Part shown: positions 2,794 through 64,000 of the stretch, in pieces
How positions within the stretch are numbered: the first letter of the stretch is position 1
Layout: each line of letters opens with the position of its first letter
Virus record (IMG/VR): IMGVR_UViG_3300025601_000016
Coordinates: 6,867-70,866 of that record
From: a virus
Direction: 5' to 3' (one strand)
Length of the DNA stretch: 64,000 nucleotides
The notes under the pieces: model-generated
The model's database searches: none
The model's input: only the letters and a program-made list of their open reading frames with translations
What the model was told of the DNA's origin: nothing
Program-made: the position numbers and the translations under genes

Positions 2794-3528
2794 ATGTCTC
2801 AGCTGCTCACAAGCGAACTTATTTCCAGACTGGCATACGGAGAAGTCTCTAATCTCAAAATGGGAGATTTGAACACAGGGCTCATCCGAGAGGAGAATAT
2901 GCCCGGTGTTCTGATGCAGCTCAATAAAGCAATGAAAGACTTGTTCACGAGGTTTGAACTCAAAACTCGAGAAGTCCTGATTAACACCCAACTAGACATT
3001 TCTTACTATTATTTGCGTTATGAATTTGCCATGAGTAATGTGGGCAGTGCTCAGCCTGTACTCTACATTGATGATAGTATGTGCGAGGATTTTGACGGCC
3101 GGATTGCCAAGATCCTTGCTGTCTATGATGCGTTTGGCCGGCAGCTGTACCTAAACAAAACCCAAGAGCCGCTGTCGGTCTTCACGCCTCAGTACGATTG
3201 TCTTCAGATTGGCTCCAACCAACAAACCGAACAGTTCTACGTTATCTTCCAGGCTCTGCACCCGGTGCTCACAGCCCCTTTTGGTACTGGAGCCAACCAA
3301 GGTGACCCAGACGTTGTTATCAATGTGCCTCCTGCCTTGGAGGATGTACTTGTGCTACTTTGTGCTTCTAAGATCTATGAAGGCATAAACGGTCCAGCCA
3401 ACGCCGCAAGAAGCGCATTGCTTCATCAAAAATATGAAATGGCTTTGATGCAGTCTGAGATCAGAGACAGCATCTCAGTCAGCGCAAACATGTCTAACAG
3501 CAAGCTTGATAAAGCAGGGTTTATTTAA
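2794..3528 (+). CDS. N4 gp67-like virion structural (head-tail adaptor) protein
   Basis: 244 aa, follows terL as in N4-like phages; ends SKLDKAGFI, similar to gp67 family C-termini. Confidence 0.75.
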   Translation: MSQLLTSELISRLAYGEVSNLKMGDLNTGLIREENMPGVLMQLNKAMKDLFTRFELKTREVLINTQLDISYYYLRYEFAMSNVGSAQPVLYIDDSMCEDFDGRIAKILAVYDAFGRQLYLNKTQEPLSVFTPQYDCLQIGSNQQTEQFYVIFQALHPVLTAPFGTGANQGDPDVVINVPPALEDVLVLLCASKIYEGINGPANAARSALLHQKYEMALMQSEIRDSISVSANMSNSKLDKAGFI

Positions 3529-5504
3529 TGAGACCAACGTCCAGTCCTTTTGCTAATCCATCAGGACTCGTCGATAAGCGTCTTGGTAATATGTGGGCGC
3601 AGATCGAGGAGGTAAGAGCTCTCTTACCTCAAATTGCTCATGTCAGTTATTATCTCGAGAGTCTTTTCAACCTCGATCGTAACTTGACGCTTCTCTCAGA
3701 TGAGAACGTCGATCACCATATTCTTAAAGACATTACTATTTTCCAGGGAGCCAATGCTTATGAGCTGGCTCTGGTTGAAGGCTTTGTTGGTACACCAGCT
3801 GAATGGCTCGAAAGTCTTATAGGTCCAATAGGTTCTACAGGCTTTCTTGATGTTGCTGCTCACCAAGTGCTAATTGATGGGATTGCTGCGAACGTGGCAG
3901 CTTTAGCTGCCGCGGACGCAGCAATCTTAGCTAATACAAATAAGTTTTCAGATTATACAACACTGGCTGCATACAATGCTGATGTCACAGCGGTTCAAGC
4001 TCAACTGACTGCTTTGGAAACAAGCATCCTGGCTCAGGTAGATCTACTACTTCCGACACCTAGAACAAATGCTGAGATAGGTTCTTTGGCTCAAGCTGTA
4101 GTGAACACGGCTCTTGCAGGGCTAGAACCTTCTTTTTTTGATCCAGATGGTCGTCTAGATTCTATTGATCTTTTGCTTGATGGTTTACGTGATGATCTTG
4201 ATGTCAACGAAATTGCATTCAACGAGTTTGTTTTTTCAAACCTGACAACAATAGGCCGAATCACCGCTCTTGAAGCTGTAGGAGAAGACACTGCTGCTTC
4301 ACTTATTGAACTCCAAACAGTCACGTTTGATACAGCAGCACAGCAATTGGTTCTTACGGCTGAAAGCGCAAGTCAGCTCTCTCAAATAAATAGTTTGTCC
4401 GCGGTTAGTCTAAACCAAGCGACCCAAATTAACGCACTTCAAGTATCAAATAACGCTAATTACGCGTCAGTTACTTCTATTGAGTTGGCTTATGTAACTG
4501 AAGACGAAGCCCTTGCTGCGTCTATACTCACAATTGAAAGTGCTTTTGAAGCAGCCGATCTTTTGCTTAGTGCTGATATTTTGACAGAGCAAACTGCTCG
4601 AACTACTGCAATTTCAGCAGCTGCCACAGACAGAACGCTTATTCGTTCTCAGTTTGCTTTGGCTGATACTGCCTTATCTGCAAGCATCTCTGCGAGCATC
4701 TCTACAGAAGCTTCAACTAGAGCTTCTGCGGATTCAGCTATAGCAGGCACTGTTACAACACTAAGCTCCACTGTTGGAGGGCTTTCTTCAACAGTGTCTG
4801 TTCAAGCTTCAACGCTTGCTGATATTGAAGGTAACTTAGCGGGTAAATACAGCATATCTGTTAGCGGGGGTGGTGTAGGCGCTTTTGTTAGTCTAGAAGA
4901 TGGAACAACCTACGGCAGTGTGATTGAGCTATCAGCAGCTAATATTAAGCTTCGAGCAGACGCTCTTGACCTTGGCACAGCCACTACGTTTGAATCAACA
5001 AAAGACACGTTTTACACAATCGCAGGCGAATACAGATTTAGGTATGGTGGCCCATTTGGAGTAAGTAACACTCTTTTGCAGTGGTATGGACTCAACTCTG
5101 TCGCTCTTAACTCTGAAACAAAAACAAATGGTGTTTTTGCTTTGGCGACAGATGGTAAAGTTTACTTTGGAAATAGCGCATTAGGCGCATCAATGTCTGT
5201 TACACACTCAGGTGTGTACGTAAAAGTTAAGATAGGCACAGGAACTAACAACACTGGATCGATCACGCTAACACCAACAGGTGGTGTTGCTCCATACACA
5301 TACTCACATCAGCTAGTCAAAACAGCAAATCTGAACAACATTTCCGTTACATTAAATAGCCCAACAAGTGCTACGTTTTCTATATCAGCAGGTTCCCAAA
5401 CACCTGTTAAATCTGTTGAATATCTTGTAGTATCAACAATTACAGATGCAGCAGGAAAATCGATTCAATACACTAAAGGTGGTGGACTTTTTTGGGAAAG
5501 TTAA
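3528..5504 (+). CDS. tail fibre / receptor-binding protein
   Basis: N4-like N-terminal anchor, GANAYELA...WLESLIGP motif, Ala/Ser/Thr-rich coiled coil (TEASTRASADSAIA), beta-rich C-terminus ending TDAAGKSIQY...LFWES. Confidence 0.85.
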   Translation: MRPTSSPFANPSGLVDKRLGNMWAQIEEVRALLPQIAHVSYYLESLFNLDRNLTLLSDENVDHHILKDITIFQGANAYELALVEGFVGTPAEWLESLIGPIGSTGFLDVAAHQVLIDGIAANVAALAAADAAILANTNKFSDYTTLAAYNADVTAVQAQLTALETSILAQVDLLLPTPRTNAEIGSLAQAVVNTALAGLEPSFFDPDGRLDSIDLLLDGLRDDLDVNEIAFNEFVFSNLTTIGRITALEAVGEDTAASLIELQTVTFDTAAQQLVLTAESASQLSQINSLSAVSLNQATQINALQVSNNANYASVTSIELAYVTEDEALAASILTIESAFEAADLLLSADILTEQTARTTAISAAATDRTLIRSQFALADTALSASISASISTEASTRASADSAIAGTVTTLSSTVGGLSSTVSVQASTLADIEGNLAGKYSISVSGGGVGAFVSLEDGTTYGSVIELSAANIKLRADALDLGTATTFESTKDTFYTIAGEYRFRYGGPFGVSNTLLQWYGLNSVALNSETKTNGVFALATDGKVYFGNSALGASMSVTHSGVYVKVKIGTGTNNTGSITLTPTGGVAPYTYSHQLVKTANLNNISVTLNSPTSATFSISAGSQTPVKSVEYLVVSTITDAAGKSIQYTKGGGLFWES

Positions 5505-5535: not shown

Positions 5536-5652
5536 ATGAAATACATTGTTATTGGTTTTTTGGTATTTGTATCTGCCTGTGCATCAACCACAGACAGCTC
5601 TTACAGCGGCGGTAATGGGGCAGAAACCCCCAATCAAACTCAAAAAAAGTAA
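5536..5652 (+). CDS. small lipoprotein (38 aa), candidate receptor-blocking/superinfection-exclusion protein
   Basis: AAGGA RBS; MKYIVIGFLVFVSA-C lipobox; Gly/Ser linker; ends QKK; directly after the RBP gene. Confidence 0.75.
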   Translation: MKYIVIGFLVFVSACASTTDSSYSGGNGAETPNQTQKK

Positions 5653-5658
5653 ACGCTA

Positions 5659-6201
5659 ATGAGCTTATTTTCATTTTTCTTTAAATCTAAACAAAAACCT
5701 CAATATACTACTATTGAGGTTAAACCTGCTTCTGTACCCCCAATAGACACTATTCTTGGTTCTACATATCAAGACGATCTTCTTATGGAAGATCTAATAG
5801 ATAATGAAGGTCTGGTTCTTCATGCCTATTTAGACACTAAGAAACTTGTCACTATTGGTATTGGAACCATGATCGATAAAAATCGTGGTGGTGGGATCAC
5901 AAAAGAAGAGGCAATTTATCTTGCCAAGAATCGCCTTAAAAAAGCCGCTCAGCAACTAGATGAACACCTGCCCTGGTGGAGAGAACTCTCTCTTGTGAGA
6001 CAGCGTCTGATGGTAGAGCTGTGCTACAATATGGGTATTGGGTCCAAGACTTCTGGTCTATTGTCTTTTGTAAATACTTTGCCGGCAATCCAAAGAAGAG
6101 ATTATTTGACTGCGGCCAAAGGGTTTCAGAACTCTAAATGGGCAAGAGACGTTGGACCAATTAGGTCTGGTAAAATGATCAAAATGCTTTTAGAGGGGTA
6201 A
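5659..6201 (+). CDS. endolysin, T4-like lysozyme (GH24)
   Basis: EGLVLHAYLDTKKLVTIGIG (E-x8-D-x5-T triad), YNMG, SKWARDVG. Confidence 0.92.
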   Translation: MSLFSFFFKSKQKPQYTTIEVKPASVPPIDTILGSTYQDDLLMEDLIDNEGLVLHAYLDTKKLVTIGIGTMIDKNRGGGITKEEAIYLAKNRLKKAAQQLDEHLPWWRELSLVRQRLMVELCYNMGIGSKTSGLLSFVNTLPAIQRRDYLTAAKGFQNSKWARDVGPIRSGKMIKMLLEG

Positions 6202-6245
6202 TACCCGCTTTGCTAGTAGACCAACCCAAACGAGGAACATATCTA

Positions 6246-6704
6246 ATGTTTGAATTTCTAAAGAAGAATGCCGCAATGGCTATGGCGTCTGTTGCCCTAG
6301 TTCTTTCTGGCTGTAATAGCTTTACAGATATGCGTGCTCCGCCAAACATTTATGCGGACTCTGGTAGTGTTGCTGAAACGGCTTTGACCACGATTAAAGC
6401 CTTTGGTGCCGCACAAGACACAATCATCACTGTTTGTGGCCCTGCTCTCCCAGACACTGTCGAAGGTGATGCGTGTGCTAAGATCATCCCGGTCGAGCAA
6501 ACTCTAAGACCTGCAGTGACTGCTGCTGGCCAAATTGGCGCAGAGTACGCTGACATCGATGCTCGAATTCGTGAACTAGGCCCTAAAGCTCCCGCTGAAT
6601 GGCTCCTTGCCGCAGCTGAAGTAGCAGGCAAACTCTCCGCCGCATACGACCCAATCCGGACCGATGTTGATAACTTCCTCACTAATGTAGGAGCCCTAAA
6701 CTAA
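6246..6704 (+). CDS. lipoprotein, possible spanin component
   Basis: GAGG RBS, ATG 6246, VALVLSG-C lipobox, follows endolysin. Confidence 0.7.
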   Translation: MFEFLKKNAAMAMASVALVLSGCNSFTDMRAPPNIYADSGSVAETALTTIKAFGAAQDTIITVCGPALPDTVEGDACAKIIPVEQTLRPAVTAAGQIGAEYADIDARIRELGPKAPAEWLLAAAEVAGKLSAAYDPIRTDVDNFLTNVGALN

Positions 6705-7018
6705 TGGCTAATCTAGCTGCAATCATTAAAACTGCGGAACGTGCTGTTGGCATTCTCCGTATGCTTGAGTCGGTCCTTGGTGACCAAACACCATTTGTCA
6801 AAGACGGACTGGCAATTGTTGGTAAAGTACTGACAGGCGTTAAGTTTGGCTCTGCTTCTTATTCAGCACTGCTTGCTGAATTGGATGGTGTTGTTGTCGA
6901 AATGGAAGCTGTTCGCACTAAAGGCGGTGTTGTCGGTGATGACTTCAAACTTGAAGTAGCTAAAATTAAAGACCGCGGAAACAGAATTGACGCGATCCTT
7001 GCAGGGCTTAAAGGCTAG
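6704..7018 (+). CDS. hypothetical protein (lysis-module associated)
   Basis: 104 aa, TAATG-coupled to the lipoprotein, amphipathic helices. Confidence 0.75.
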   Translation: MANLAAIIKTAERAVGILRMLESVLGDQTPFVKDGLAIVGKVLTGVKFGSASYSALLAELDGVVVEMEAVRTKGGVVGDDFKLEVAKIKDRGNRIDAILAGLKG

Positions 7019-7046
7019 GCCTCCCCCCAGAACTAGCCTATGAGAG

Positions 7047-7079
7047 AAGGTACGAGCAGAAATGTTCGTACCTTTTTTT
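7047..7079 (+). terminator. Rho-independent terminator
   Basis: AAGGTACGAGCA-GAAA-TGTTCGTACCTT followed by a T-run. Confidence 0.85.
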
Positions 7080-7095
7080 GTATAAAGGATAGGTT

Positions 7096-7266
7096 ATGTA
7101 TAGAACTCCAGCAGAGCTTCCTAACGAACACGTATTGATGTATTCGACAGAGCTGGCGGGCTTATATCTCTTTTCAACAAACCATATTTTTAATTGTATA
7201 TTTCCAAGTTCTGAAGTTCCTGGAAAAAGTTACGTTATAGCTGAAGAATTCGATACTAGTTCTTAG
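7096..7266 (+). CDS. small hypothetical protein (56 aa)
   Basis: AAGGA RBS, MYRTPAELPNEHVLMYS...; below the ORF-track cutoff. Confidence 0.4.
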   Translation: MYRTPAELPNEHVLMYSTELAGLYLFSTNHIFNCIFPSSEVPGKSYVIAEEFDTSS

Positions 7267-7331
7267 GCTTTACTTTAAAAAGTTACAGCACTATTCCTGT
7301 TAAACATTGCTCATAACTTCGAGGGCCACCA

Positions 7332-45552: not shown

Positions 45553-46898
45553 TACAGATAAATTCCTCTTTTGTTTTGATGGATCCCTTTATCATAGACA
45601 TACACTTTTTTCTTGGCCCGAGAGGCTCCAACATACAGCATACGGCGTAGTTGATTTGAATCAGTGGATGTAAAGATATCGTCCATGATCATAATTACAG
45701 AATCATAAGTCGACCCTTGTGCTTTATACACAGTGGCCGCTTCTCTGTTTCTAAGATCAATAAATGTTTCTTGTAGCTTGTAGAAAGCCCTCCACTGTTT
45801 ATTATTTTTAAAATGTTTTAAAAGACGATCATATTCTAATCTGCTCTCAGGAACATAAACAGAAGTGCGTGTACTAGAGTGAGATGAGACATCTAAGCTA
45901 TAAGCGCCTAGGTAGTTGTCTCTATCCACTTTGACCATTTCTGGCCCCAGAACGTTATGTACAAAAAGCTCTTCTTCAACACTGAAGCTAGTGCTAGGTC
46001 CTACAGAAAAATGGTTATTGCAGATCAAATATTCACCACCAACAGGATGAGAGGGCAGTCCTCTCAAATTTCTGATGTGATCATTATATCCAATTACAGT
46101 ATTATTTGTGTATGCAAGTATCCTACAAGAGAGCTCTTGGTCGTCAGACTTTACGGACCCTCCGGGTCCGTAAATCTGATCGACCAAAGCTCTCAATTGG
46201 TCACCATCAACGTGCTCAATCTCTCCAGGAACTTCACACCAATGAGTGAGACTTTGTCTGTCTGTTCCGTTGACAATGTCTTTCCTGAGACGATCACATA
46301 GATCCATAAGCCCTGGCGATTCGGCATTGCGTACAGGTGTAGTAATTTCGTAATGGAGGTGTGGGTAGTCGGCTAGCCGTACAGCAGGGCTTAATTGCTC
46401 CATGACAGGAGCCAGTTGGTTCTTGTCACCAATGTAGATGATCTTGCAAGAAGAGTCAGTTGCTTCCTGGATCAGGTTGTAGAGGTTTTGTTCAATCATA
46501 GAGGCTTCATCAATGAAGATAATTTCATTGTCATGAACTCTCCATTTGTTATTTTTAGTCAGAAGTGTTTGACCTGTACTAAAGTCTTTACGCGGAGCCA
46601 CTCCAAGAAAAGAGTGGATAGTAGAAGCAAAGCGTTCTGTTGCTTCAGAAAGTACAGCAGCAGCTTTGTTTGTCGTGCTAGTTAGGATGATTTCTTTTCG
46701 AGCGTTTTCATTCTTACCCATGGCAGCGTTGTAGTTTTTAATTGTTTGAAGCAGAGTGTCGGCAAGCTCTTTTGTAGTAAAAGTCTTGCCAACACCTGGA
46801 GCCCCAGTAAGAAAAAACTCTTTACTTTGACCAACAATAAACGCGGCGATGCTGTTAACTGCTTGTTGTTGATCCGCGTTCAATGTAGGTCGAGTCAT
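45552..46898 (-). CDS. Dda-like SF1 DNA helicase (N4 gp37-like)
   Basis: GAPGVGKT, IDEASM, GDKNQL, KAQGST, YVGASRA. Confidence 0.93.
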   Translation of the reverse strand: MTRPTLNADQQQAVNSIAAFIVGQSKEFFLTGAPGVGKTFTTKELADTLLQTIKNYNAAMGKNENARKEIILTSTTNKAAAVLSEATERFASTIHSFLGVAPRKDFSTGQTLLTKNNKWRVHDNEIIFIDEASMIEQNLYNLIQEATDSSCKIIYIGDKNQLAPVMEQLSPAVRLADYPHLHYEITTPVRNAESPGLMDLCDRLRKDIVNGTDRQSLTHWCEVPGEIEHVDGDQLRALVDQIYGPGGSVKSDDQELSCRILAYTNNTVIGYNDHIRNLRGLPSHPVGGEYLICNNHFSVGPSTSFSVEEELFVHNVLGPEMVKVDRDNYLGAYSLDVSSHSSTRTSVYVPESRLEYDRLLKHFKNNKQWRAFYKLQETFIDLRNREAATVYKAQGSTYDSVIMIMDDIFTSTDSNQLRRMLYVGASRAKKKVYVYDKGIHQNKRGIYL

Positions 46899-50460: not shown

Positions 50461-51080
50461 GCCGCATCCCTCTGCAGAGCAGTCGCAGCCCCTTCGATAA
50501 AATCCACAATCCGCAACGCTTCAGACTGGTAGCGCCTGGATGTCACCGTCTGGCAATGCTCGCGGGCCTGCTTAATTGCATCCCCACCAATCCATGTCCT
50601 GCACCCTGCCGTGATGACCAGCCCGCCGAGAATGGAAGTCCACGCGAAATATTCGTGACCGTCCAAACGAGTGACACGAGCGAACAGGATTAGTCCGCCC
50701 AAATTAGCACCGCGCATATCGGCACCGCGTAGATATGCACCGACCAGATAAACACCGTTCAGATTGGCACCACTTAGATTAACATCGCGCATATATGCAC
50801 CGCGCATATCGGCACCACGCATATCAGCACCGTACAAATTAACACCGCCCAGATCGGCATAGCTCAGATCGGCACCGCGTAGATATGCACCGCTTAGATC
50901 GGCACCGCCTAGATAGGCACCGCCTTTAAAGGCGACCTTTACAGCCAGCCCCAGCTTTACGCCCCAGTCTGCGCTTTTATTGCATTCGATTTTGGCGGTG
51001 AATTGGACCTCATGCGTCCAGCGATTTTTGATTTTGTAATGTTGTTCCTTGATTGTTTCAATCTCTCTCTCATCAACCAC
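50457..51080 (-). CDS. pentapeptide-repeat protein
   Basis: about 15 A(D/Y/N)(L/M)xG repeats; probable GTG start at 51080; GC-richer than flanks. Confidence 0.85.
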   Translation of the reverse strand: MVDEREIETIKEQHYKIKNRWTHEVQFTAKIECNKSADWGVKLGLAVKVAFKGGAYLGGADLSGAYLRGADLSYADLGGVNLYGADMRGADMRGAYMRDVNLSGANLNGVYLVGAYLRGADMRGANLGGLILFARVTRLDGHEYFAWTSILGGLVITAGCRTWIGGDAIKQAREHCQTVTSRRYQSEALRIVDFIEGAATALQRDAA

Positions 51081-52827: not shown

Positions 52828-53064
52828 TTAGTACCGATACCAAATAGTGAAAATACCATCTATCAATAGTGGGTAATCTTCAGGTGTTTTAGGAATAGCC
52901 CTGATAATGATGTCTGCAAAATCACCTTCATCGCAGACATCTTCTGAAAGCTTTTTGAGTTTGATGAAGTCTGCATCTTCAACTGTGATTGCAAAGCAAT
53001 CATGATCTCCGCCGCCATCATCCCAGTTTTCATGTTGGGTTGTTAGTACCACTGTCTTGGTCAT
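52828..53064 (-). CDS. hypothetical protein
   Basis: AAGGA RBS, MTKTVVLTT... Confidence 0.65.
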   Translation of the reverse strand: MTKTVVLTTQHENWDDGGGDHDCFAITVEDADFIKLKKLSEDVCDEGDFADIIIRAIPKTPEDYPLLIDGIFTIWYRY

Positions 53065-57416: not shown

Positions 57417-57791
57417 TCAGATCTCTGGGAATCGAGTTTCCCTCATACCAATCATATTCTTGGTACTATCACTCAGTTCTTCATACCGGGCCTTCAGGGC
57501 CTCGGTATTTTCACCATATTTGATGAGAGATTCACGTTGGAGTTCAATGAGCTGAATACGTTTCACCTCATCTTTGTACTTACCTGAGATCTTGGTCATC
57601 TCAGTCTTCCGGTGGACGACGTCATTGCCGAGATCCACTGTCATGAATACAGATTGCGCCGTATCGGCTACTGTATTCATGGTTCCACCAACGACTGTCG
57701 TCACGAGTCGAGCTGCTGGCTGCAGCACTCCTCCAACTACTGTTCCAATCACAGCACCTATTCCCATACGGGCTACATATCCAATCATCAT
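57417..57791 (-). CDS. early hypothetical protein
   Basis: AAGGA RBS; first gene under promoter P7. Confidence 0.7.
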   Translation of the reverse strand: MMIGYVARMGIGAVIGTVVGGVLQPAARLVTTVVGGTMNTVADTAQSVFMTVDLGNDVVHRKTEMTKISGKYKDEVKRIQLIELQRESLIKYGENTEALKARYEELSDSTKNMIGMRETRFPEI

Positions 57792-60408: not shown

Positions 60409-60600
60409 ATAGTAATCAGTCTTAAGTGAGTATTAAGTAATAGGAGAGAGGTTAACTAGAGTTAAGGAGTTGGGGATTTGTGGTAAAGAGCAGTATTTAA
60501 TAGCACAATACTTGGTAATACTACATCTATACATAAAGTATTAGAGTAATCTTTAAGTATTAGTGACTGAGTATTTGAATTACCCAAATGAACACTATCC
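60409..60600. repeat. AT-rich non-coding tract with scattered AGTA(A/T)T copies
   Basis: about 8 AGTATT/AGTAAT copies plus inverted AATACT in ~190 bp. Confidence 0.55.
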
Positions 60601-60608
60601 CATCTGTA

Positions 60609-60640
60609 GAAAACTTAACCCCTTCCCGTGAGGGAAGGGG
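60609..60640 (-). terminator. Rho-independent terminator
   Basis: CCCCTTCCC-TCAC-GGGAAGGGG-TTAAGTTTT. Confidence 0.75.
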
Positions 60641-60646
60641 AAAGTG

Positions 60647-60847
60647 CTAAGCAGCTTCTGCTTTAGGAGCAGGCTTCTTGACTTTGCGTGGCTTAGCCTT
60701 GACAGGCAGAGCAGCACGAGCTTCGTCAACAGACTTCTTGGCGATTATGGCGATCATAGCCCAGATACCGCTGAGAGCGACGCCGAGCGAGATGACAATG
60801 ATCTTACCAAAGGTAGCCCAGGTAGCGAGAAGGAAAGCAGTGAACAT
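60647..60847 (-). CDS. first early gene: membrane-anchored basic protein
   Basis: TGGAGACT RBS, MFTAFLLATW..., Lys/Pro/Ala-rich tail. Confidence 0.8.
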   Translation of the reverse strand: MFTAFLLATWATFGKIIVISLGVALSGIWAMIAIIAKKSVDEARAALPVKAKPRKVKKPAPKAEAA

Positions 60848-60889
60848 GGTAGTCTCCAGTGTTAGGTACACGAGCAGGATGCAAGCATA

Positions 60890-60912
60890 CACACCGGGGC
60901 GCAGCCCCACTT
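60890..60912 (-). promoter_or_regulatory. vRNAP hairpin promoter P1
   Basis: CAC-ACC-GGGGC-GCA-GCCCC-ACTT. Confidence 0.85.
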
Positions 60913-61048
60913 CACATAGGTAGAGCCACCGGGGGGGTTTTGGAAACGGAGTGCTCCTTAGTGTAAGAGCACTGCAACCCCTCCTACATATGATGATTTG
61001 TGTATAAAAAAATATTATGAGTTAGAAGCGTATTAAGCTCTTCATACA

Positions 61049-61363
61049 TCACCAGGAACCTCTCATAGCTGTGCTGACAGAACCGCCTGAAGTTCTCATG
61101 CCACCGAATGGATCAATTACTTCTTTTTTTATTTCCCAGATAAGATTTCTAAGTATAGCCGCAGCAATTGCTTCATCTATACTATAGAATAGTCGTATAT
61201 TGTCTTTCTTTACTCCAATTTTTAAAGCATAGAGACAAGTTACTTTATCTAATACTGGTGAATAGTACCATTCTGCTCGCCAAATAGTTCCTATTTTCTT
61301 CACCGTATAAGACATGTTACTTATAAACTTTAGTTCTTCTTCTTGAGAGATTACATTAGACAT
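61049..61363 (-). CDS. hypothetical protein
   Basis: GGAG RBS before MSNVISQ. Confidence 0.6.
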   Translation of the reverse strand: MSNVISQEEELKFISNMSYTVKKIGTIWRAEWYYSPVLDKVTCLYALKIGVKKDNIRLFYSIDEAIAAAILRNLIWEIKKEVIDPFGGMRTSGGSVSTAMRGSW

Positions 61364-61565
61364 CAAGCTCTCCTTGGATGTTTTGCCATAGTTCAATGGC
61401 TCTCTTTGCTTCTTCTAGTGTCTTGGGTTCCTGACTGAACTTGGCAGCCACGCCATCTGGTCTTGTAAGTATTGTCCAGCCTTTACCTGCGCGCTCATAG
61501 TAAAGAGCTTCATATACTGGGGAGCCATTGTACTTATGGAGCGTGCGTGTTTTGAATTTACTCAT
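61356..61565 (-). CDS. hypothetical protein
   Basis: AGGA RBS before MSKFKTR. Confidence 0.65.
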   Translation of the reverse strand: MSKFKTRTLHKYNGSPVYEALYYERAGKGWTILTRPDGVAAKFSQEPKTLEEAKRAIELWQNIQGELDV

Positions 61566-61642
61566 GATTCTTTCCTGATTATTGACGGATACTACAAACA
61601 ATAGTTATTACTGAATGTGGTGGGTTACCGCGGGAGATCTTT

Positions 61643-61816
61643 ATGTTCTTTGAAACATATATGGATAGGAAGAAACAGTATCGTTGGAGGCTCAAAGCCG
61701 CAAACGGTAAAATTATTGCTTCTGGCGAAAGCTACAAACAACAAGCCAGCCGGGACAAAGCTATTGAACTGATGAGGCATTTGCTCGAGGTGCCAATTAA
61801 AGAAGTGAAGAATTAA
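61643..61816 (+). CDS. YegP/DUF1508-like protein (57 aa)
   Basis: GGGAG RBS; FETY.D.K.QYRWRLKAANGKIIASGESY; below the ORF-track cutoff. Confidence 0.85.
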   Translation: MFFETYMDRKKQYRWRLKAANGKIIASGESYKQQASRDKAIELMRHLLEVPIKEVKN

Positions 61817-61819
61817 ATT

Positions 61820-62110
61820 ATGGATCCTTCACTTATTCTTTCCGCAGGTGTACCAGGGGTGTTGCTTGCAGGCATCGGTTTTATCTGGCGTGAGTGGCAA
61901 GCAGACCGCCGAAAGGCCGAGGATCGCTATACTGCTGCCCTCGCAGAATCCAGAGAAGACGCAAAGGCCATGCACCAATTAGCCGCGGATCTCGGACAAG
62001 CGGCTGATGCCATTGGCCAAATAAATGTGAATGGTGGCAAGATAGATAAACTTGCAGCACAAATGTATGAGACTCTGTCATTAGTTAAAACCCTTAAAGG
62101 GATTAACTAA
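61820..62110 (+). CDS. N-terminal TM plus coiled-coil protein (holin/antiholin candidate)
   Basis: one TM then charged helix. Confidence 0.7.
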   Translation: MDPSLILSAGVPGVLLAGIGFIWREWQADRRKAEDRYTAALAESREDAKAMHQLAADLGQAADAIGQINVNGGKIDKLAAQMYETLSLVKTLKGIN

Positions 62111-62111
62111 T

Positions 62112-62291
62112 ATGGTAGCCACACCCTTCAAATGGAGCTGCATGGGGCGGAAGCGCCGTGAAAAGCTGGATGAGAAATCAACCAAGCTCATAGAAGAAAG
62201 AGCCACTTCAAGAAAAGCTGCTCTGGCCAAAGCTGCAGATGCTGTTACTAGGTTAAATTTAGAACTTAGTAGGGCAATAAAACATGATTAA
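62112..62291 (+). CDS. small basic protein (59 aa)
   Basis: MVATPFKWSCMGRKRREKLDE...; fills the operon gap. Confidence 0.6.
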   Translation: MVATPFKWSCMGRKRREKLDEKSTKLIEERATSRKAALAKAADAVTRLNLELSRAIKHD

Positions 62292-62775
62292 TAAAGAAAA
62301 TGGGTCTTTGTTTGCTGCAATAGCTGCTACAGGTTTATTGTTTTTATCAGCAAGTATGGGATCCAGAGCCATTACCATAGCCGCTTACGTTCCTATTATT
62401 TTGGCTGGCGTAATTGCAACCTTCTCATTTGCCGCTTTATCTATACGCGCGTGGGGCCAAAAACCCCCAGGAGAACTAGTTGCTTGGATCTTTGGTCATC
62501 TAACTCTTTGGTCCGTCGCGTTTACAGTAGAAGAGTTTGGCTGGTTCCTATGGCGGGTCAAAGAACCAAGTGAAGTGATTACTCTTTTTGAGTACACATT
62601 GTCCCCTGCTCTGAAAGTCATTCAAACCGTTTCAATACTCGGACTGGTACTGCTTATGTATCTGGTCCAAAGAGGCCAAGAAGGTACAAAACTTACTATC
62701 AATCTTCGTCTTTTTTGGTTGTTCAATGTGACACTGGCCAGTATCTATTTCCTAATGCTGCACTTGCTTGTTTAG
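62284..62775 (+). CDS. multi-pass membrane protein
   Basis: about 5 hydrophobic segments in 163 aa. Confidence 0.75.
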   Translation: MINKENGSLFAAIAATGLLFLSASMGSRAITIAAYVPIILAGVIATFSFAALSIRAWGQKPPGELVAWIFGHLTLWSVAFTVEEFGWFLWRVKEPSEVITLFEYTLSPALKVIQTVSILGLVLLMYLVQRGQEGTKLTINLRLFWLFNVTLASIYFLMLHLLV

Positions 62776-62784
62776 GAGCTCCGG

Positions 62785-63090
62785 ATGAGACATAACAAAA
62801 AAGACCCTAAAACAGGAAGATTTGTTAGCGTTAAGAGAAAACGTATAAACAAAAGCCTGTTTCTTTTACCTGTATTGCTTTTTTTGATTGTCTCTGCGGG
62901 CATAGTTTTTATGCTCCATCTTAGAGCAACAGAGATTACTTACATTGTGATATCCGAGCAAGAGCTTCTTGGTTCTTATGAAGCACCTGCTATAGTTGAG
63001 CAGATTGTCGAACCTGTAGTCATTAAAAAAGAAGTCCCGCGGGAACCAATAAAGATTTACCGCGGGACTTCTATTGAGATCATTGACTAA
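62785..63090 (+). CDS. single-TM protein
   Basis: AGGAG RBS, KDPKTGRFV basic N-terminus, one TM. Confidence 0.7.
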   Translation: MRHNKKDPKTGRFVSVKRKRINKSLFLLPVLLFLIVSAGIVFMLHLRATEITYIVISEQELLGSYEAPAIVEQIVEPVVIKKEVPREPIKIYRGTSIEIID

Positions 63091-63158
63091 TGTAGCTGAG
63101 GGCCTGCAGCCCAGGCAACTGCTAAATAGCGCTCGCTTTTAATGTCGTCCGCCAATGG

Positions 63159-63191
63159 AAAAGCCCCTAGAGTGTAAATCTAGGGGCTTTA
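63159..63191. terminator. bidirectional terminator between converging genes
   Basis: AAAAGCCCCTAGA-GTGTAAA-TCTAGGGGCTTT. Confidence 0.8.
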
Positions 63192-63240
63192 TATTTGTTC
63201 AGGTCGAAGGCGGCGTTCCCGCGCTAGGCAGTCAAACGCG

Positions 63241-63552
63241 TCATTCCGGAACCACTGGGTCCGCCGGATTTTCGGGAATCAGTTCCGAGGCCCGAAGCCC
63301 TATGAGCGTGGTAGCCTCACCTGCGAGTCCATGCCAGCCACCCGATGCAATCAGGTAGGCTGATCCCAGCAGTAGCGACAGCCCGGCCTGAGATAGCTCC
63401 TCTACCGAGCGCAGCGCTCTGAATGTATCTACCGCCTGCACAACTGGCGACCCCTGTCCCTGTGCGCGATAGATTGCCTCGGACTGATCTGCGTCAGGCT
63501 CATAGGCCAGCAGCGCGTCTCGAAACGCGGGAATAGAATTTGGGTAGGTCAT
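63241..63552 (-). CDS. hypothetical protein (GC-rich island)
   Basis: AAGGA RBS, 103 aa. Confidence 0.75.
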   Translation of the reverse strand: MTYPNSIPAFRDALLAYEPDADQSEAIYRAQGQGSPVVQAVDTFRALRSVEELSQAGLSLLLGSAYLIASGGWHGLAGEATTLIGLRASELIPENPADPVVPE

Positions 63553-63576
63553 CCGATTTTTCCTTTGTTGGCAGAA

Positions 63577-63702
63577 TTATTTCTTTTGCACGGGGTGATC
63601 TGGCTGGCTGCCGCCTGAACTGCCGTTATTGGCAGGAGGCGCAGTTGCACATGCGGCTGCTAAAGTCATGATCAGTGCGGCGATTATCAGTTTCGGTTTC
63701 AT
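63577..63702 (-). CDS. small lipoprotein (41 aa), paralog of 5536-5652
   Basis: MKPKLIIAALIMTLAAA-CATAPPANNGSSGGSQPDHPVQKK; lipobox; ends QKK. Confidence 0.75.
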   Translation of the reverse strand: MKPKLIIAALIMTLAAACATAPPANNGSSGGSQPDHPVQKK

Positions 63703-63782
63703 AGTGTCTTGCTTTCTTGCTTCTAAATTTGTCGGATATTTCATTGTGTGGTGTCCTCACCAGTTGTAAATCCTGCGTCTAC

Positions 63783-63811
63783 GCTTAGCCCGCGCGCGGT
63801 GGTTTAGTCAA
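63783..63811 (-). promoter_or_regulatory. putative host housekeeping-sigma promoter
   Basis: TTGACT-N16-GCTAAGC, resembling alphaproteobacterial RpoD promoters. Confidence 0.45.
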
Positions 63812-63821
63812 TGGCGTCAGC

Positions 63822-64000
63822 TTATGATTCCCAAGACAAAAACAACGGCGAAACAAACTGCACTTTTTTGCCTGCGGCATCTGTAGCCGTTGTCAGGATT
63901 GCGCCTTGCACTTCTTGGCCAACCGAACCCGTCGCCGACGCTGTTATCGACGCGGCGGTCGACGACGAAAGCGACACGTTCGGCGAGGCGGGCGCCTGCG
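63822..64000 (-). CDS. 3' end of a second tail-fibre tip (paralog of the 3528-5504 C-terminus), truncated by window edge
   Basis: QAPASPNVSLSSSTAASITASATGSVGQEVQGAILTTATDAAGKKVQFVSPLFLSWES*. Confidence 0.85.
   Translation of the reverse strand, partial: QAPASPNVSLSSSTAASITASATGSVGQEVQGAILTTATDAAGKKVQFVSPLFLSWES

What the first reader, a model, noticed from the sequence alone, without database searches (positions are those of the whole stretch)
63577..64000. Second, inverted tail-fibre tip paired with its own mini-lipoprotein: candidate RBP/receptor-blocker cassette system
Seen: the last 180 bp, read on the minus strand, encode ...NVSLSSSTAASITASATGS...ILTTATDAAGKKVQFVSPLFLSWES*. This aligns end-to-end with the C-terminus of the tail fibre at 3528-5504 (...SVTLNSPTSATFSISAGS...VVSTITDAAGKSIQYTKGGGLFWES*). 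Each tip is followed by a ~40-aa lipoprotein of the same design (MK-hydrophobic-A-C-A, Gly/Ser linker, C-terminal QKK): 5536-5652 and 63577-63702. The second copy is visibly GC-richer, in the opposite orientation, and missing from the ORF track. Known: T5 oad-llp and the phi80/T1 tail-cor arrangement couple an RBP to a lipoprotein that blocks the cognate outer-membrane receptor, and Mu gin/P1 cin invert alternative fibre ends. Inference: this phage carries at least two [tip + cognate blocker] modules, either as a second full fibre or as a spare cassette swapped in by inversion or recombination.
Basis: partly seen in the sequence, partly recalled or inferred. Interest (0 to 1): 0.88.

Follow-up and report, generated by a model that had tools for sequence, protein, structure and literature searches.

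The report
Second tail fibre with mini-lipoprotein gene
The window ends in the tail end of a second, very long tail-fibre gene of an N4-like phage, cut by the assembly break and followed by a tiny lipoprotein gene like the one behind the first fibre; nothing shows that the fibre ends switch, and what the lipoprotein does is still open.

Summary
The last 58 codons (minus strand) match the end of fibre 3528-5504 at 20 of 53 residues. Each end is followed by a lipobox mini-ORF with a 24-residue mature part ending in QKK. These are the only two such ORFs in the 70.9-kb genome (shuffles average 0.3).

The window end is the contig end. The first 1,842 codons of the same gene lie at the contig start, so this is a second complete fibre broken by the assembly, with about 65-70 codons missing. 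I found no invertase, no integrase and no shared crossover DNA.

Fibre 2, lipo2 and a 103-codon membrane-protein gene form a GC-rich block, as far as it is read (fibre 2 beyond its first 340 codons 0.55, lipo2 0.52, ORF103 0.60; backbone 0.43). Unrelated co-occurring phages share its parts at 85-92% protein identity. Those phages carry other fibre ends and no lipoprotein; one keeps a 3' remnant of it.

A third homologue, on a metagenome contig, overlaps the start of a lysozyme gene. The lipoprotein always lies between a fibre gene and lysis genes.

I lean to an exit or lysis role (about 0.4) over receptor blocking (about 0.25). It matches no known protein family.

The parts
63822..64000 (-). 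3' end of the fibre 2 gene: the last 58 codons plus the stop, which is the second half of an Ig-like 'WES' end domain. The 5' 1,842 codons lie outside the window, at contig bases 2-5527 (locus L002, minus strand). About 65-70 codons are missing at the contig break.
   Evidence: The size of the gap is inferred by comparison with P0002, P0004 and P0043. Related salt-lake contigs run 34-347 nt beyond base 64000.
63703..63821 (-). 119-nt spacer between the fibre 2 stop and lipo2. It holds an alternative upstream ATG at 63744, which would give a 55-aa form with a GAGG-like ribosome site.
   Evidence: No terminator-like site was found here.
63577..63702 (-). lipo2: a 41-aa lipoprotein precursor (lipobox AAAC, Cys18) with a 24-residue mature part ending QKK.
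   Evidence: A homologue on L013 has 17 of 24 identities in the mature part. The same protein, with a 1-nt change at the stop, is on record from a 14.8-kb contig. A 3' remnant is in L009.
63241..63552 (-). ORF103: a 103-aa protein with one hydrophobic stretch in its C-terminal half. It is conserved downstream of fibre genes in GC-rich phages and is a holin-like candidate.
   Evidence: Relatives at 92, 89, 64 and 65% identity are in L009, L010, L011 and L012. In L012 the next gene is a PF11860 muramidase, E 6.6e-36. No family match of its own.
63160..63190 (.). A 12-bp-stem hairpin with T-runs, terminator-like. It lies between the minus-strand unit fibre 2-lipo2-ORF103 and the converging plus-strand genes.
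   Evidence: consensus scan only.
3528..5504 (+). Fibre 1 (658 aa). Its N-terminal 120 residues are shared with other N4-like contigs. The end domain is at about 5208-5504 (Ig-like, ends in WES).
   Evidence: SprB repeat, 26.7 bits, below the 28-bit cut-off; P0006 orthologue; beta-sandwich model, mean pLDDT 79.8; only weak Ig-like matches, best E 0.018.
5536..5652 (+). lipo1: a 38-aa lipoprotein precursor (lipobox VSAC, Cys15) with a 24-residue mature part ending QKK. It starts 31 nt after fibre 1 and ends 6 nt before the lysozyme gene.
5659..6201 (+). GH24 phage lysozyme (180 aa), the likely endolysin.
   Evidence: PF00959, 41.1 bits against a cut-off of 22.3. PHROG 7 endolysin, E 1.7e-15.
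6246..6704 (+). A 152-aa ORF with a canonical lipobox (LSGC), in the position where N4 has its spanin genes. Function unknown.
   Evidence: No family match. N4 gene order is taken from passages of bioRxiv 10.1101/2025.11.12.688109.

Best explanation
Anatomy (about 0.9). The window ends inside a second tail-fibre gene of an N4-like podophage. The gene reads on the minus strand. Its first 1,842 codons lie at the other end of the same 70,866-bp contig. The assembly broke inside the terminal domain, and about 65-70 codons are missing, so the whole fibre has roughly 1,970 residues. Downstream follow a 41-codon lipoprotein gene (lipo2), a 103-codon membrane-protein gene (ORF103) and a terminator-like hairpin.

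From about codon 340 of the fibre onward, this unit is GC-rich where it is read (fibre part 0.55, lipo2 0.52, ORF103 0.60; backbone 0.43). It was taken up by recombination from unrelated GC-rich phages of the same habitat. Both fibres end in the same mobile Ig-like domain, which ends in W-E-S/T/A and is found on many unrelated fibres.

Lipoprotein (inferred). A conserved mini-lipoprotein with a 24-25-residue unstructured mature peptide is made alongside the fibre and lysis genes and is anchored in the envelope. I think it most likely acts at the exit step (about 0.4). It could weaken or open the outer membrane beside the endolysin, in the manner of a bacteriocin-release lipoprotein or a minimal o-spanin. 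A receptor plug matched to its fibre seems less likely.

Shown: the genes, their conservation, their positions, and the cassette exchange. Inferred: lipidation, location in the envelope, and any function.
For: Anatomy:
- The window end is the contig end.
- The contig start holds a 1,842-aa frame on the same strand with tail-fibre PHROG matches, E 3.6e-21.
- That frame stops within the 'YYQ..P...NG.FW' linker that directly precedes this end domain in P0002, P0003, P0004 and P0006.
- The window's 58 residues cover only the second half of the domain.
- Related contigs in four salt-lake runs extend 34-347 nt past base 64000.

Acquired block:
- Fibre modules are 85% identical to L004, L005 and L006.
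- ORF103 is 89-92% identical in L010 and L009.
- Backbone contigs of 3 of the 4 runs laid cross the hairpin and reach 63249, inside ORF103.

Lipoprotein is a real gene:
- The pattern finds only these 2 ORFs in the genome; shuffles average 0.3.
- The L013 homologue has a strong ribosome site (ribosome site read from its codons) and 17 of 24 mature identities.

Link to lysis:
- lipo1 ends 6 nt before a GH24 lysozyme gene.
- The L013 copy overlaps the lysozyme start, 3778 against 3781.
- lipo2 ends 24 nt before ORF103, whose L012 homologue directly precedes a muramidase gene.
- No terminator-like site separates the fibre, the lipoprotein and the next gene.
- No embedded o-spanin-like ORF exists in 6200-7330, so the outer-membrane step is otherwise unassigned.
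- Both lipoproteins lie nearest, by language-model features, to the same unnamed clusters of 38-39-aa proteins and to the colicin E1 lysis-protein cluster (0.90-0.91, about 150 shared features). This is a lead only.
- Lambda Rz1 is likewise an unstructured lipoprotein whose Cys-proximal linker tolerates Gly-Ser repeats (passages of PMC6139136).
Against: - The lipoprotein is absent from 3 of the 5 ORF103-type contigs seen (L005/L010, L011, L012) and is only a remnant in L009. It is therefore not an essential lysis part there.
- It is present behind all 3 WES-type ends whose downstream context I could read, and behind none of the 4 other ends. That pattern fits a link to the fibre end.
- Two diverged copies in one genome fit 'one per fibre' better than a single lysis role, unless lipo2 merely came along with ORF103.
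- There is no match to Lysis_col or to any spanin family.
- No partner i-spanin was recognised. The mature peptide has no second Cys and is shorter than Rz1 (40 aa) or the N4 o-spanin (56 aa).
- The in-frame circular join of 1,901 aa could mean that nothing is missing. I judge this a one-in-three coincidence, because the first half of the domain would then be absent.
Confidence: 0.45

Rival explanations
1. Receptor blocker paired with the fibre end. Each mini-lipoprotein masks the envelope receptor recognised by its neighbouring WES-type end domain. It would work like T5 Llp or T1/phi80 Cor, preventing superinfection or the loss of progeny on cell debris. Fibre end and lipoprotein would move together as a two-gene host-range cassette.
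For: - The lipoprotein is present downstream of 3 of 3 WES-type ends with readable context: window copies 1 and 2, and L013.
- It is absent downstream of 4 of 4 other ends on related fibres: L005/L010, L009, L011 and L012. My own arithmetic gives a Fisher exact probability of 1/35, but the loci are not independent.
- In L009 the replacement of the end domain removed the 5' two-thirds of the lipoprotein gene in the same event.
- There are two diverged copies in one genome, one behind each fibre.
- Llp- and Cor-type genes next to receptor-binding genes are established (passages of PMC11990801, and PMC9586334).
Against: - The mature part has 24-25 residues, is rich in Gly, Ser, Pro and Asn, and has no second Cys. 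Llp has 61 residues, a Cys11-Cys58 bond and a 1,640 square-angstrom interface.
- The lipoprotein type does not follow the end-domain type. The L013 end is nearer end 1 (18 of 29 and 39 of 67 identities, against 9 of 29 and 7 of 20 for end 2). Its lipoprotein is nearer lipo2 (17 of 24 against 12 of 23).
- In L013 a 103-aa ORF separates the fibre end from the lipoprotein, and the lipoprotein overlaps the lysozyme start.
- In four salt-lake runs, contigs holding an end-2-like sequence (5-10 differences in 179 nt) diverge exactly after the stop codon into unrelated AT-rich sequence. What that sequence encodes is unknown.
- No match in PHROGs, Pfam or NCBIfam.
Confidence: 0.25
2. The mini-lipoproteins have another envelope role or none. 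For example, they could be a short tether or decoy whose C-terminal lysines engage the cell wall, or a passenger gene that persists only because it lies between two exchanged blocks.
For: - No family match of any kind.
- Only three full copies and one remnant were found in all collections searched.
- One database variant has lost the stop codon, which changes the C-terminus.
- lipo2 sits in a block that also carries an apparently orphan holin-like gene.
Against: - The lipobox Cys, the mature length (24, 24 and 25 residues) and the terminal QKK are kept across copies that are otherwise 9-17 of 23-24 identical, at gene GC of 0.40, 0.52 and 0.58. That argues for selection.
- The L013 copy has a strong ribosome site.
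Confidence: 0.2
3. Invertible or shufflon-like switching of alternative fibre ends (Mu gin / P1 cin type).
For: Two related end domains lie in opposite orientation in one genome.
Against: - No Resolvase-family match and no Phage_integrase-family match in the 70,866-bp record. The controls matched in 12 and 14 of 14 genomes.
- The only DNA shared between the two ends is 19 nt at 89% identity.
- The second end belongs to a gene with its own start codon and 1,842 upstream codons.
- The two ends lie about 58 kb apart in the window.
Confidence: 0.02
4. Assembly chimera: the GC-rich ends of the contig belong to another phage and were joined to the N4-like backbone by mistake.
For: - ORF103 and the lipoprotein's 3' end occur at about 5- to 100-fold higher depth than the backbone, in L005-like and L009-like contexts within the same metagenomes. 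The assembly graph is therefore tangled here.
- GC jumps from 0.42 to 0.54 in the last kilobase of the window.
Against: - Contigs of 3 of the 4 runs laid (X1, X2, X5; different samples and studies, one of which may be the source sample) run from the backbone through the hairpin to 63249.
- Both contig ends carry the two halves of one gene in one orientation.
- The first 340 codons of fibre 2 have an intermediate GC of 0.48, as expected for a recombinant gene.
- A separate 14.8-kb contig on record carries lipo2 with its upstream spacer.
Confidence: 0.05

Closest known systems
T5 Llp and T1/phi80 Cor superinfection-exclusion lipoproteins
   Same: A small phage-encoded lipoprotein encoded next to a receptor-binding gene. 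Present in a lytic phage.
   Different: Llp has 61 residues, folds, carries a disulfide bond and binds the periplasmic face of FhuA. Here the mature part is a 24-residue low-complexity peptide. There is no sequence match. The gene is co-oriented with the fibre and abuts lysis genes. The lipoprotein type does not follow the end-domain type.
Two-component spanin outer-membrane subunit (lambda Rz1, N4 gp60a)
   Same: An unstructured lipoprotein encoded in a lysis cassette. In Rz1 the Gly/Ser-tolerant linker follows the lipid-bearing Cys.
   Different: Rz1 has a 40-aa mature part and N4 gp60a has 56 aa. Those genes are embedded in, overlap or follow an i-spanin gene. Here the gene precedes the endolysin, no i-spanin was recognised, and the mature part has no periplasmic Cys.
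Colicin lysis (bacteriocin release) lipoproteins, Pfam PF02402
   Same: A mini-lipoprotein design. It is the only Pfam-named cluster among the best hits for both copies by language-model features, at 0.90-0.91. Their small size and outer-membrane action are my recollection and come from no call.
   Different: No Pfam match at E<=10. The shared-feature count (146-152) is below what same-family pairs usually show. The genetic context is a phage, not a colicin operon.
Dual receptor-binding proteins of Schitoviridae (for example the two tailspikes of Gamaleyavirus)
   Same: An N4-like phage with two separate fibre or spike genes. The arrangement is described as common (passage of PMC11990801).
   Different: The second fibre here has about 1,970 residues. 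Its gene lies divergent from, and a few kilobases upstream of, the terminase gene. It is largely made of modules shared with unrelated GC-rich phages.
Mu gin / P1 cin invertible fibre segments
   Same: Two alternative-looking fibre ends in opposite orientation.
   Different: No invertase, no crossover repeats, and each end belongs to its own complete gene.

Membership tests
Llp/Cor-type receptor-blocking lipoproteins | Signal peptide with a lipobox Cys | tested here: met
   VSAC (Cys15), AAAC (Cys18), and AAAC in L013. Lipidation itself was not shown.
Llp/Cor-type receptor-blocking lipoproteins | Gene next to the receptor-binding gene | tested here: met
   31 nt and 119 nt downstream of the two fibre genes. 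In L013 one ORF lies between them.
Llp/Cor-type receptor-blocking lipoproteins | Folded mature domain able to form a large interface (Llp: 61 residues, Cys11-Cys58) | tested here: not met
   Mature parts of 24, 24 and 25 residues, rich in Gly, Ser, Pro and Asn, with no second Cys. Llp data are from passages of PMC9586334.
Llp/Cor-type receptor-blocking lipoproteins | Sequence similarity to known members | tested here: not met
   No PHROG, Pfam or NCBIfam family beyond signal-peptide-only matches below the cut-offs. I did not check which models of Llp or Cor these libraries hold.
Llp/Cor-type receptor-blocking lipoproteins | Blocks adsorption through the cognate receptor | not testable with these tools
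   The host and the receptor are unknown.
Gin/Cin-type invertible fibre-end systems | Serine invertase gene beside the segment | tested here: not met
   PF00239: 0 matches in the record; the control matched in 12 of 14 genomes. PF00589: 0 matches. The unassembled gap of about 0.2 kb is too small to hold one.
Gin/Cin-type invertible fibre-end systems | Inverted crossover repeats shared by the alternative ends | tested here: not met
   The best shared DNA is 19 nt at 89% identity.
Two-component spanin, o-subunit | Lipoprotein gene embedded in, overlapping or next to an i-spanin gene | tested here: not met
   The gene precedes the lysozyme gene. There is no type II membrane protein with a coiled-coil domain nearby. 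The 152-aa neighbour has a lipobox of its own.
Two-component spanin, o-subunit | Periplasmic cysteine in one of the two subunits (507 of 528 systems) | tested here: inconclusive
   None in the mature mini-lipoproteins. The 152-aa ORF has two further Cys after the lipobox Cys. The figure is from PMC6139136.
Colicin lysis proteins (PF02402) | Match to the family profile | tested here: not met
   No match at E<=10 for any of the 3 copies.
Colicin lysis proteins (PF02402) | Mini-lipoprotein design recognised by features | tested here: inconclusive
   Cosine score 0.91 and 0.90, with 151 and 152 shared features. Same-family pairs usually share 170 or more.
WES-type Ig-like fibre end domain (unnamed; overlaps the Pfam SprB repeat) | About 100-residue beta-sandwich at the extreme C-terminus, ending W-E-S/T/A | tested here: met
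   Ten sequences were read: 6 end WES, 2 WET and 2 WEA. Model pLDDT is 79.8 and all-beta. The SprB repeat scores 26.7 bits, below the 28-bit cut-off. For fibre 2 only the second half is in the assembly.
N4-like phages (Schitoviridae) | Core genes similar to N4-like phages and a genome of about 70 kb | tested here: met
The terminase region matches 422 phage records at 60-80% nt identity; the 15 listed rows are largely N4-like phages. PHROG 2125 virion protein, E 5.3e-51. The record is 70,866 bp and 97% complete by CheckV.

The most novel reading that the evidence does not exclude
A 24-residue lipopeptide is a minimal receptor-masking (anti-superinfection or anti-readsorption) factor. It travels with the Ig-like WES end domain as a two-gene host-range cassette and is exchanged between unrelated phage types: an N4-like podophage and GC-rich phages with J-like tail proteins. 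It would be by far the smallest exclusion lipoprotein known, and a portable pair of 'key plus lock-cover'.
Probability: 0.2. Interest if true: 0.75.

Novelty: new variant of a known kind. Interest (0 to 1): 0.4.

Why it matters
Two fibres in an N4-like phage, and mosaic fibre ends, are ordinary. Two things are not yet described.

First, a family of mini-lipoproteins with no database family is kept behind a mobile fibre end domain in three loci of very different GC content.

Second, there is a clear recombination scar (L009). It shows a fibre end and its neighbouring gene being replaced together, between phages of different architecture living in the same salt-lake communities.

If the lipopeptide acts at lysis, it would add a very small outer-membrane factor to the list of spanins and disruptins. 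That would help with phages in which no spanin can be found. If it masks a receptor, it would show that exclusion factors can be far smaller than Llp or Cor, and that they move with the fibre end.

In either case, small lipobox ORFs behind fibre genes are missed by gene callers. lipo2 was reported missing from the ORF track, and it appears in the protein collection only from another contig.

Tried and rejected
Searches for more copies or contexts mostly failed.

- Viral-contig scans with end 2, with the three-end alignment and with the four-end alignment found no relative.
- The scan with the fibre 1 N-terminus found 3 contigs. All of them end inside the fibre gene, so there is no downstream context.
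- The metagenome scan found one locus, L013.
- The genome scan found one weak partial match, in a Saccharibacteria MAG (L015), which I did not follow up.
- Word-based protein searches with lipo2 and with the 68-aa ORF that holds lipo1 found only the window's own proteins.
- tblastn of end 1 against 50,697 phage records found no match.
- blastn of 60500-64000 against the same records found no match.

Other negative or unusable results:

The contexts of P0002, P0003, P0004, P0006, P0007, P0040 and P0043 could therefore not be read. This is the main gap in the work.
- The complex prediction of the 152-aa ORF (residues 24-152) with lipo1 (residues 9-38) returned 'no answer', score 0.00. It is evidence neither way.
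- The Foldseek search of the end-domain model against the PDB gave only generic Ig-like matches, best E 0.018.
- In read laying no contig of the four runs covered 63618-63751, which is the 5' half of lipo2 and the spacer. Contigs drop rare variants, so this says nothing about absence.
- One literature search (bacteriophage + colicin lysis protein + lipoprotein + endolysin) returned 0 papers. I made no other search for small lipoproteins behind fibre genes, so I do not claim the family is absent from print. Supplementary files were not consulted.
- I considered a tail-fibre assembly chaperone and rejected it, because an exported lipoprotein cannot act on cytoplasmic fibre folding.
- I considered a small holin. 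I judged it less likely, because the lipobox Cys is kept in all three copies.
Full report
WHERE THE WINDOW LIES. The window is bases 6867-70866 of a 70,866-bp IMG/VR virus record. The record is classed linear and is 97% complete by CheckV. Base 64000 is therefore the end of the contig. The terminase region matches 422 phage records at 60-80% nucleotide identity, and the 15 listed rows are largely N4-like phages. Gene order downstream of the terminase gene is: a PHROG 2125 virion protein, fibre 1, lipo1, a GH24 lysozyme, a 152-aa ORF, a 104-aa ORF, and then a 784-aa ORF that I read as the portal gene from its size and position, without testing it. In N4 the corresponding stretch holds the pinholin gp63, the regulator gp62, the SAR endolysin gp61, the i-spanin gp60 and the embedded o-spanin gp60a (passages of bioRxiv 10.1101/2025.11.12.688109).

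THE OBSERVATION. On the minus strand, 63822-63998 is an open frame of 58 residues ending in WES. It aligns with the last 53 residues of fibre 1 at 20 identities, up to the shared C-terminus. lipo1 has 38 aa with Cys15, and lipo2 has 41 aa with Cys18. Both have a 24-residue mature part that begins CA and ends QKK. A lipobox mini-ORF pattern run over all six frames of the genome returns exactly these two. Thirty shuffled genomes give a mean of 0.3.

THE 'SECOND TIP' IS THE END OF A COMPLETE SECOND FIBRE. The first 5.5 kb of the contig hold a 1,842-codon frame on the minus strand. It has its own ATG, runs off base 1, and has tail-fibre PHROG matches with best E 3.6e-21. It shares orientation and GC-rich composition with the window's last kilobase.

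Joining the two contig ends keeps the frame open, giving 1,901 aa. Even so, I think sequence is missing at the break, for these reasons:
- A profile search returned many fibres carrying this end domain.
- In P0002, P0003, P0004 and P0006 the domain is preceded by a linker of the form 'NYY.Q..DP...NGS.W..T....L..R.SGSW'.
- The contig-start frame stops in the first half of that linker.
- The window's 58 residues begin in the middle of the domain.
- Counting in P0004 and P0043 gives about 65-70 missing residues.
- In four salt-lake runs, contigs that hold an end-2-like sequence run 34-347 nt beyond base 64000.

All five short contigs that carry relatives of these fibres (the contig of L003/L016, and L017, L018, L004 and L006) also end inside the fibre gene. 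That is what one expects where variants of the fibre end coexist in a population.

NO SWITCHING MACHINERY. The record has no Resolvase-family match and no Phage_integrase-family match, and the controls behaved as expected. The best DNA shared by the two end regions is 19 nt at 89% identity. Each end belongs to its own complete gene. The Mu gin / P1 cin model is not supported.

A GC-RICH BLOCK TAKEN FROM OTHER PHAGES. GC values are: 0.43 for the backbone; 0.48 for the first 340 codons of fibre 2; 0.55 for the rest of fibre 2; 0.58 for end 2; 0.52 for lipo2; and 0.60 for ORF103. Modules of fibre 2 are 85% identical in protein to fibres on IMG/VR contigs L004, L005 and L006, whose other genes are not N4-like. 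ORF103 is 92% and 89% identical in L009 and L010, and 64-65% identical in L011 and L012. A 12-bp-stem hairpin at 63160-63190 closes the unit.

The block is not an assembly artefact, as far as contigs can show. In 3 of the 4 runs laid (X1, X2 and X5), backbone contigs run through the hairpin to 63249. Those runs are from different samples and studies, though one may be the source sample. The same call shows ORF103 and the lipoprotein's 3' end at about 5- to 100-fold higher depth. The loose ends there are L005-like and L009-like. So the donor-type phages live in the same salt-lake communities.

THE END DOMAIN. The profile search gives 262 proteins at E<=1e-3. Of the 150 listed, I count 44 as single matches at or near the C-terminus of proteins from 156 to 1,908 aa. 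The multi-match rows are SprB-repeat proteins. The ten sequences I read end in WES (6), WET (2) or WEA (2). P0006 is an orthologue of fibre 1. P0040 and P0043 are nearest to end 2. The model is an all-beta sandwich with mean pLDDT 79.8, and its PDB matches are generic Ig-like folds, best E 0.018. No cultured phage among 50,697 records carries the domain. It is a mobile terminal module. Whether it binds a receptor was not tested.

THE LIPOPROTEIN AND ITS NEIGHBOURS. A third copy turned up on metagenome contig L013. There, a fibre with a WEA end (frameshifted in that assembly) is followed by a 103-aa ORF and then a 42-aa lipoprotein. That lipoprotein has a strong ribosome site and a mature part 17 of 24 identical to lipo2. 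Its stop codon overlaps the start of a GH24 lysozyme gene. lipo1 ends 6 nt before the window's lysozyme gene. lipo2 ends 24 nt before ORF103.

ORF103 has one hydrophobic stretch in its C-terminal half. In L012 its homologue directly precedes a PF11860 muramidase gene (E 6.6e-36). In L011 a lysozyme gene lies about 2 kb downstream. So in 3 of 3 loci the lipoprotein gene lies exactly between a fibre gene and lysis genes.

Related fibres with other ends carry no lipoprotein:
- L005/L010 has a trypsin-like 164-aa ORF in its place.
- L011 and L012 pass straight from the fibre gene to ORF103.
- L009 has a scar. After a different fibre end comes a 32-codon chimera: the first ten codons of an ORF103-like gene, fused out of frame to the last about 40 nt of the lipoprotein gene, and followed by the intact ORF103. 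An incoming cassette of 'fibre end plus ORF103 start' therefore replaced the resident end together with most of the lipoprotein gene.

WHAT THE LIPOPROTEIN DOES. Two readings fit the position.

For a link to the fibre end:
- The lipoprotein is present behind 3 of 3 WES ends and behind 0 of 4 other ends.
- L009 shows the fibre end and the lipoprotein being lost in one event.
- There are two diverged copies in one genome, one per fibre.

Against a link to the fibre end:
- The peptide has 24-25 residues of low complexity and no second Cys, while Llp is a 61-residue disulfide-bonded protein with a 1,640 square-angstrom interface.
- The L013 end is nearer end 1, but its lipoprotein is nearer lipo2. 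The lipoprotein follows the lineage of the flanking DNA, not the type of fibre end.
- In L013 it is attached to the lysozyme gene rather than to the fibre end.
- An end-2-like sequence occurs in other contigs with unrelated sequence directly after the stop codon.

For an exit or lysis role:
- The adjacency and overlap with lysis genes.
- No terminator-like site between the genes.
- No embedded o-spanin-like ORF in the spanin position.
- The design resembles unstructured lysis lipoproteins. Rz1 has a 40-aa mature part with a Gly/Ser-tolerant linker, and both copies are feature neighbours of the colicin E1 lysis-protein cluster at 0.90-0.91, which is a weak lead.

Against an exit or lysis role:
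- The lipoprotein is dispensable in relatives with the same ORF103.
- It has no family match.
- No i-spanin partner was found.

I put the exit or lysis reading at about 0.4, receptor masking at about 0.25, and another role or none at about 0.2. Switching and chimera together get under 0.1.

KNOWN AND NEW. Two receptor-binding proteins are common in Schitoviridae (passage of PMC11990801), and mosaic fibre ends are commonplace. The mini-lipoprotein family has no database family and only three full members in everything I could search. Its association with a mobile end domain, across phages of different build, is the part worth following.

LIMITS.
- The host is unknown.
- Lipidation, timing of expression and any phenotype are inferences.
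I did not test it and did not use it as evidence.

Noticed in passing
window 6246-6704 (+): A 152-aa ORF with a canonical lipobox (LSGC after a KK-hydrophobic start) lies directly after the lysozyme gene, where N4 has its i-spanin and embedded o-spanin. It has no family match and no embedded lipoprotein ORF. The endolysin is thus flanked by two lipoprotein genes.
   Followed up: partly
L009:4905-5003: A 32-codon chimeric ORF. The first ten codons resemble the start of ORF103 and are fused out of frame to the last about 40 nt of the lipo2-type gene. The intact ORF103 homologue follows. This is a recombination scar of a fibre-end replacement.
   Followed up: yes
window 63586-63588 (the lipo2 stop codon), compared with protein P0153: The protein collection holds lipo2 from a separate 14.8-kb contig as a 64-aa form. 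One base fewer at the stop codon extends the protein by 9 residues and makes it overlap the ORF103 start. This is either a sequencing error or a real variant that alters the QKK end.
   Followed up: partly
window 63822 (loose ends in runs X1, X2, X5, X6): Contigs with an end-2-like sequence (5-10 differences in 179 nt, depth 24-91) diverge exactly after the stop codon. They continue into AT-rich sequence with a ribosome-site-like AGGAG and an ATG. That sequence is absent from the whole contig and from all held loci. The same fibre end sits in at least one other genomic context in these salt-lake communities.
   Followed up: partly
L003/L016, L017, L018, L004, L006: All five short IMG/VR contigs that carry relatives of fibre 1 or fibre 2 end inside the fibre gene, as does the window's own contig. 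Assemblies seem to break at these fibre ends, which suggests coexisting variants.
   Followed up: no
L005:1879-2373: In a related fibre locus with a different end domain, the place of the lipoprotein is taken by a 164-aa trypsin-like peptidase ORF (PF13365, 32.2 bits). It may be another kind of accessory gene tied to a fibre end.
   Followed up: no
window 63160-63190: A 12-bp-stem hairpin flanked by A- and T-runs lies between converging gene sets, close to where GC begins to rise from the backbone level to that of the GC-rich block. It is a likely two-way terminator.
   Followed up: partly
window 50696-50922 and 46129-46194: Self-comparison of the contig shows tandem copies of about 90 nt at 74-87% identity (contig 57562-57788) and a 66-nt palindrome (contig 52995-53060). 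Neither is related to the finding.
   Followed up: no
L002:4541-4698 and 5204-5361 (outside the window): The N-terminal part of fibre 2 contains an internal repeat, 72% identical over 158 nt. The protein motif recurs, and similar motifs match cyanophage and actinophage fibre proteins at 26-36% identity.
   Followed up: no
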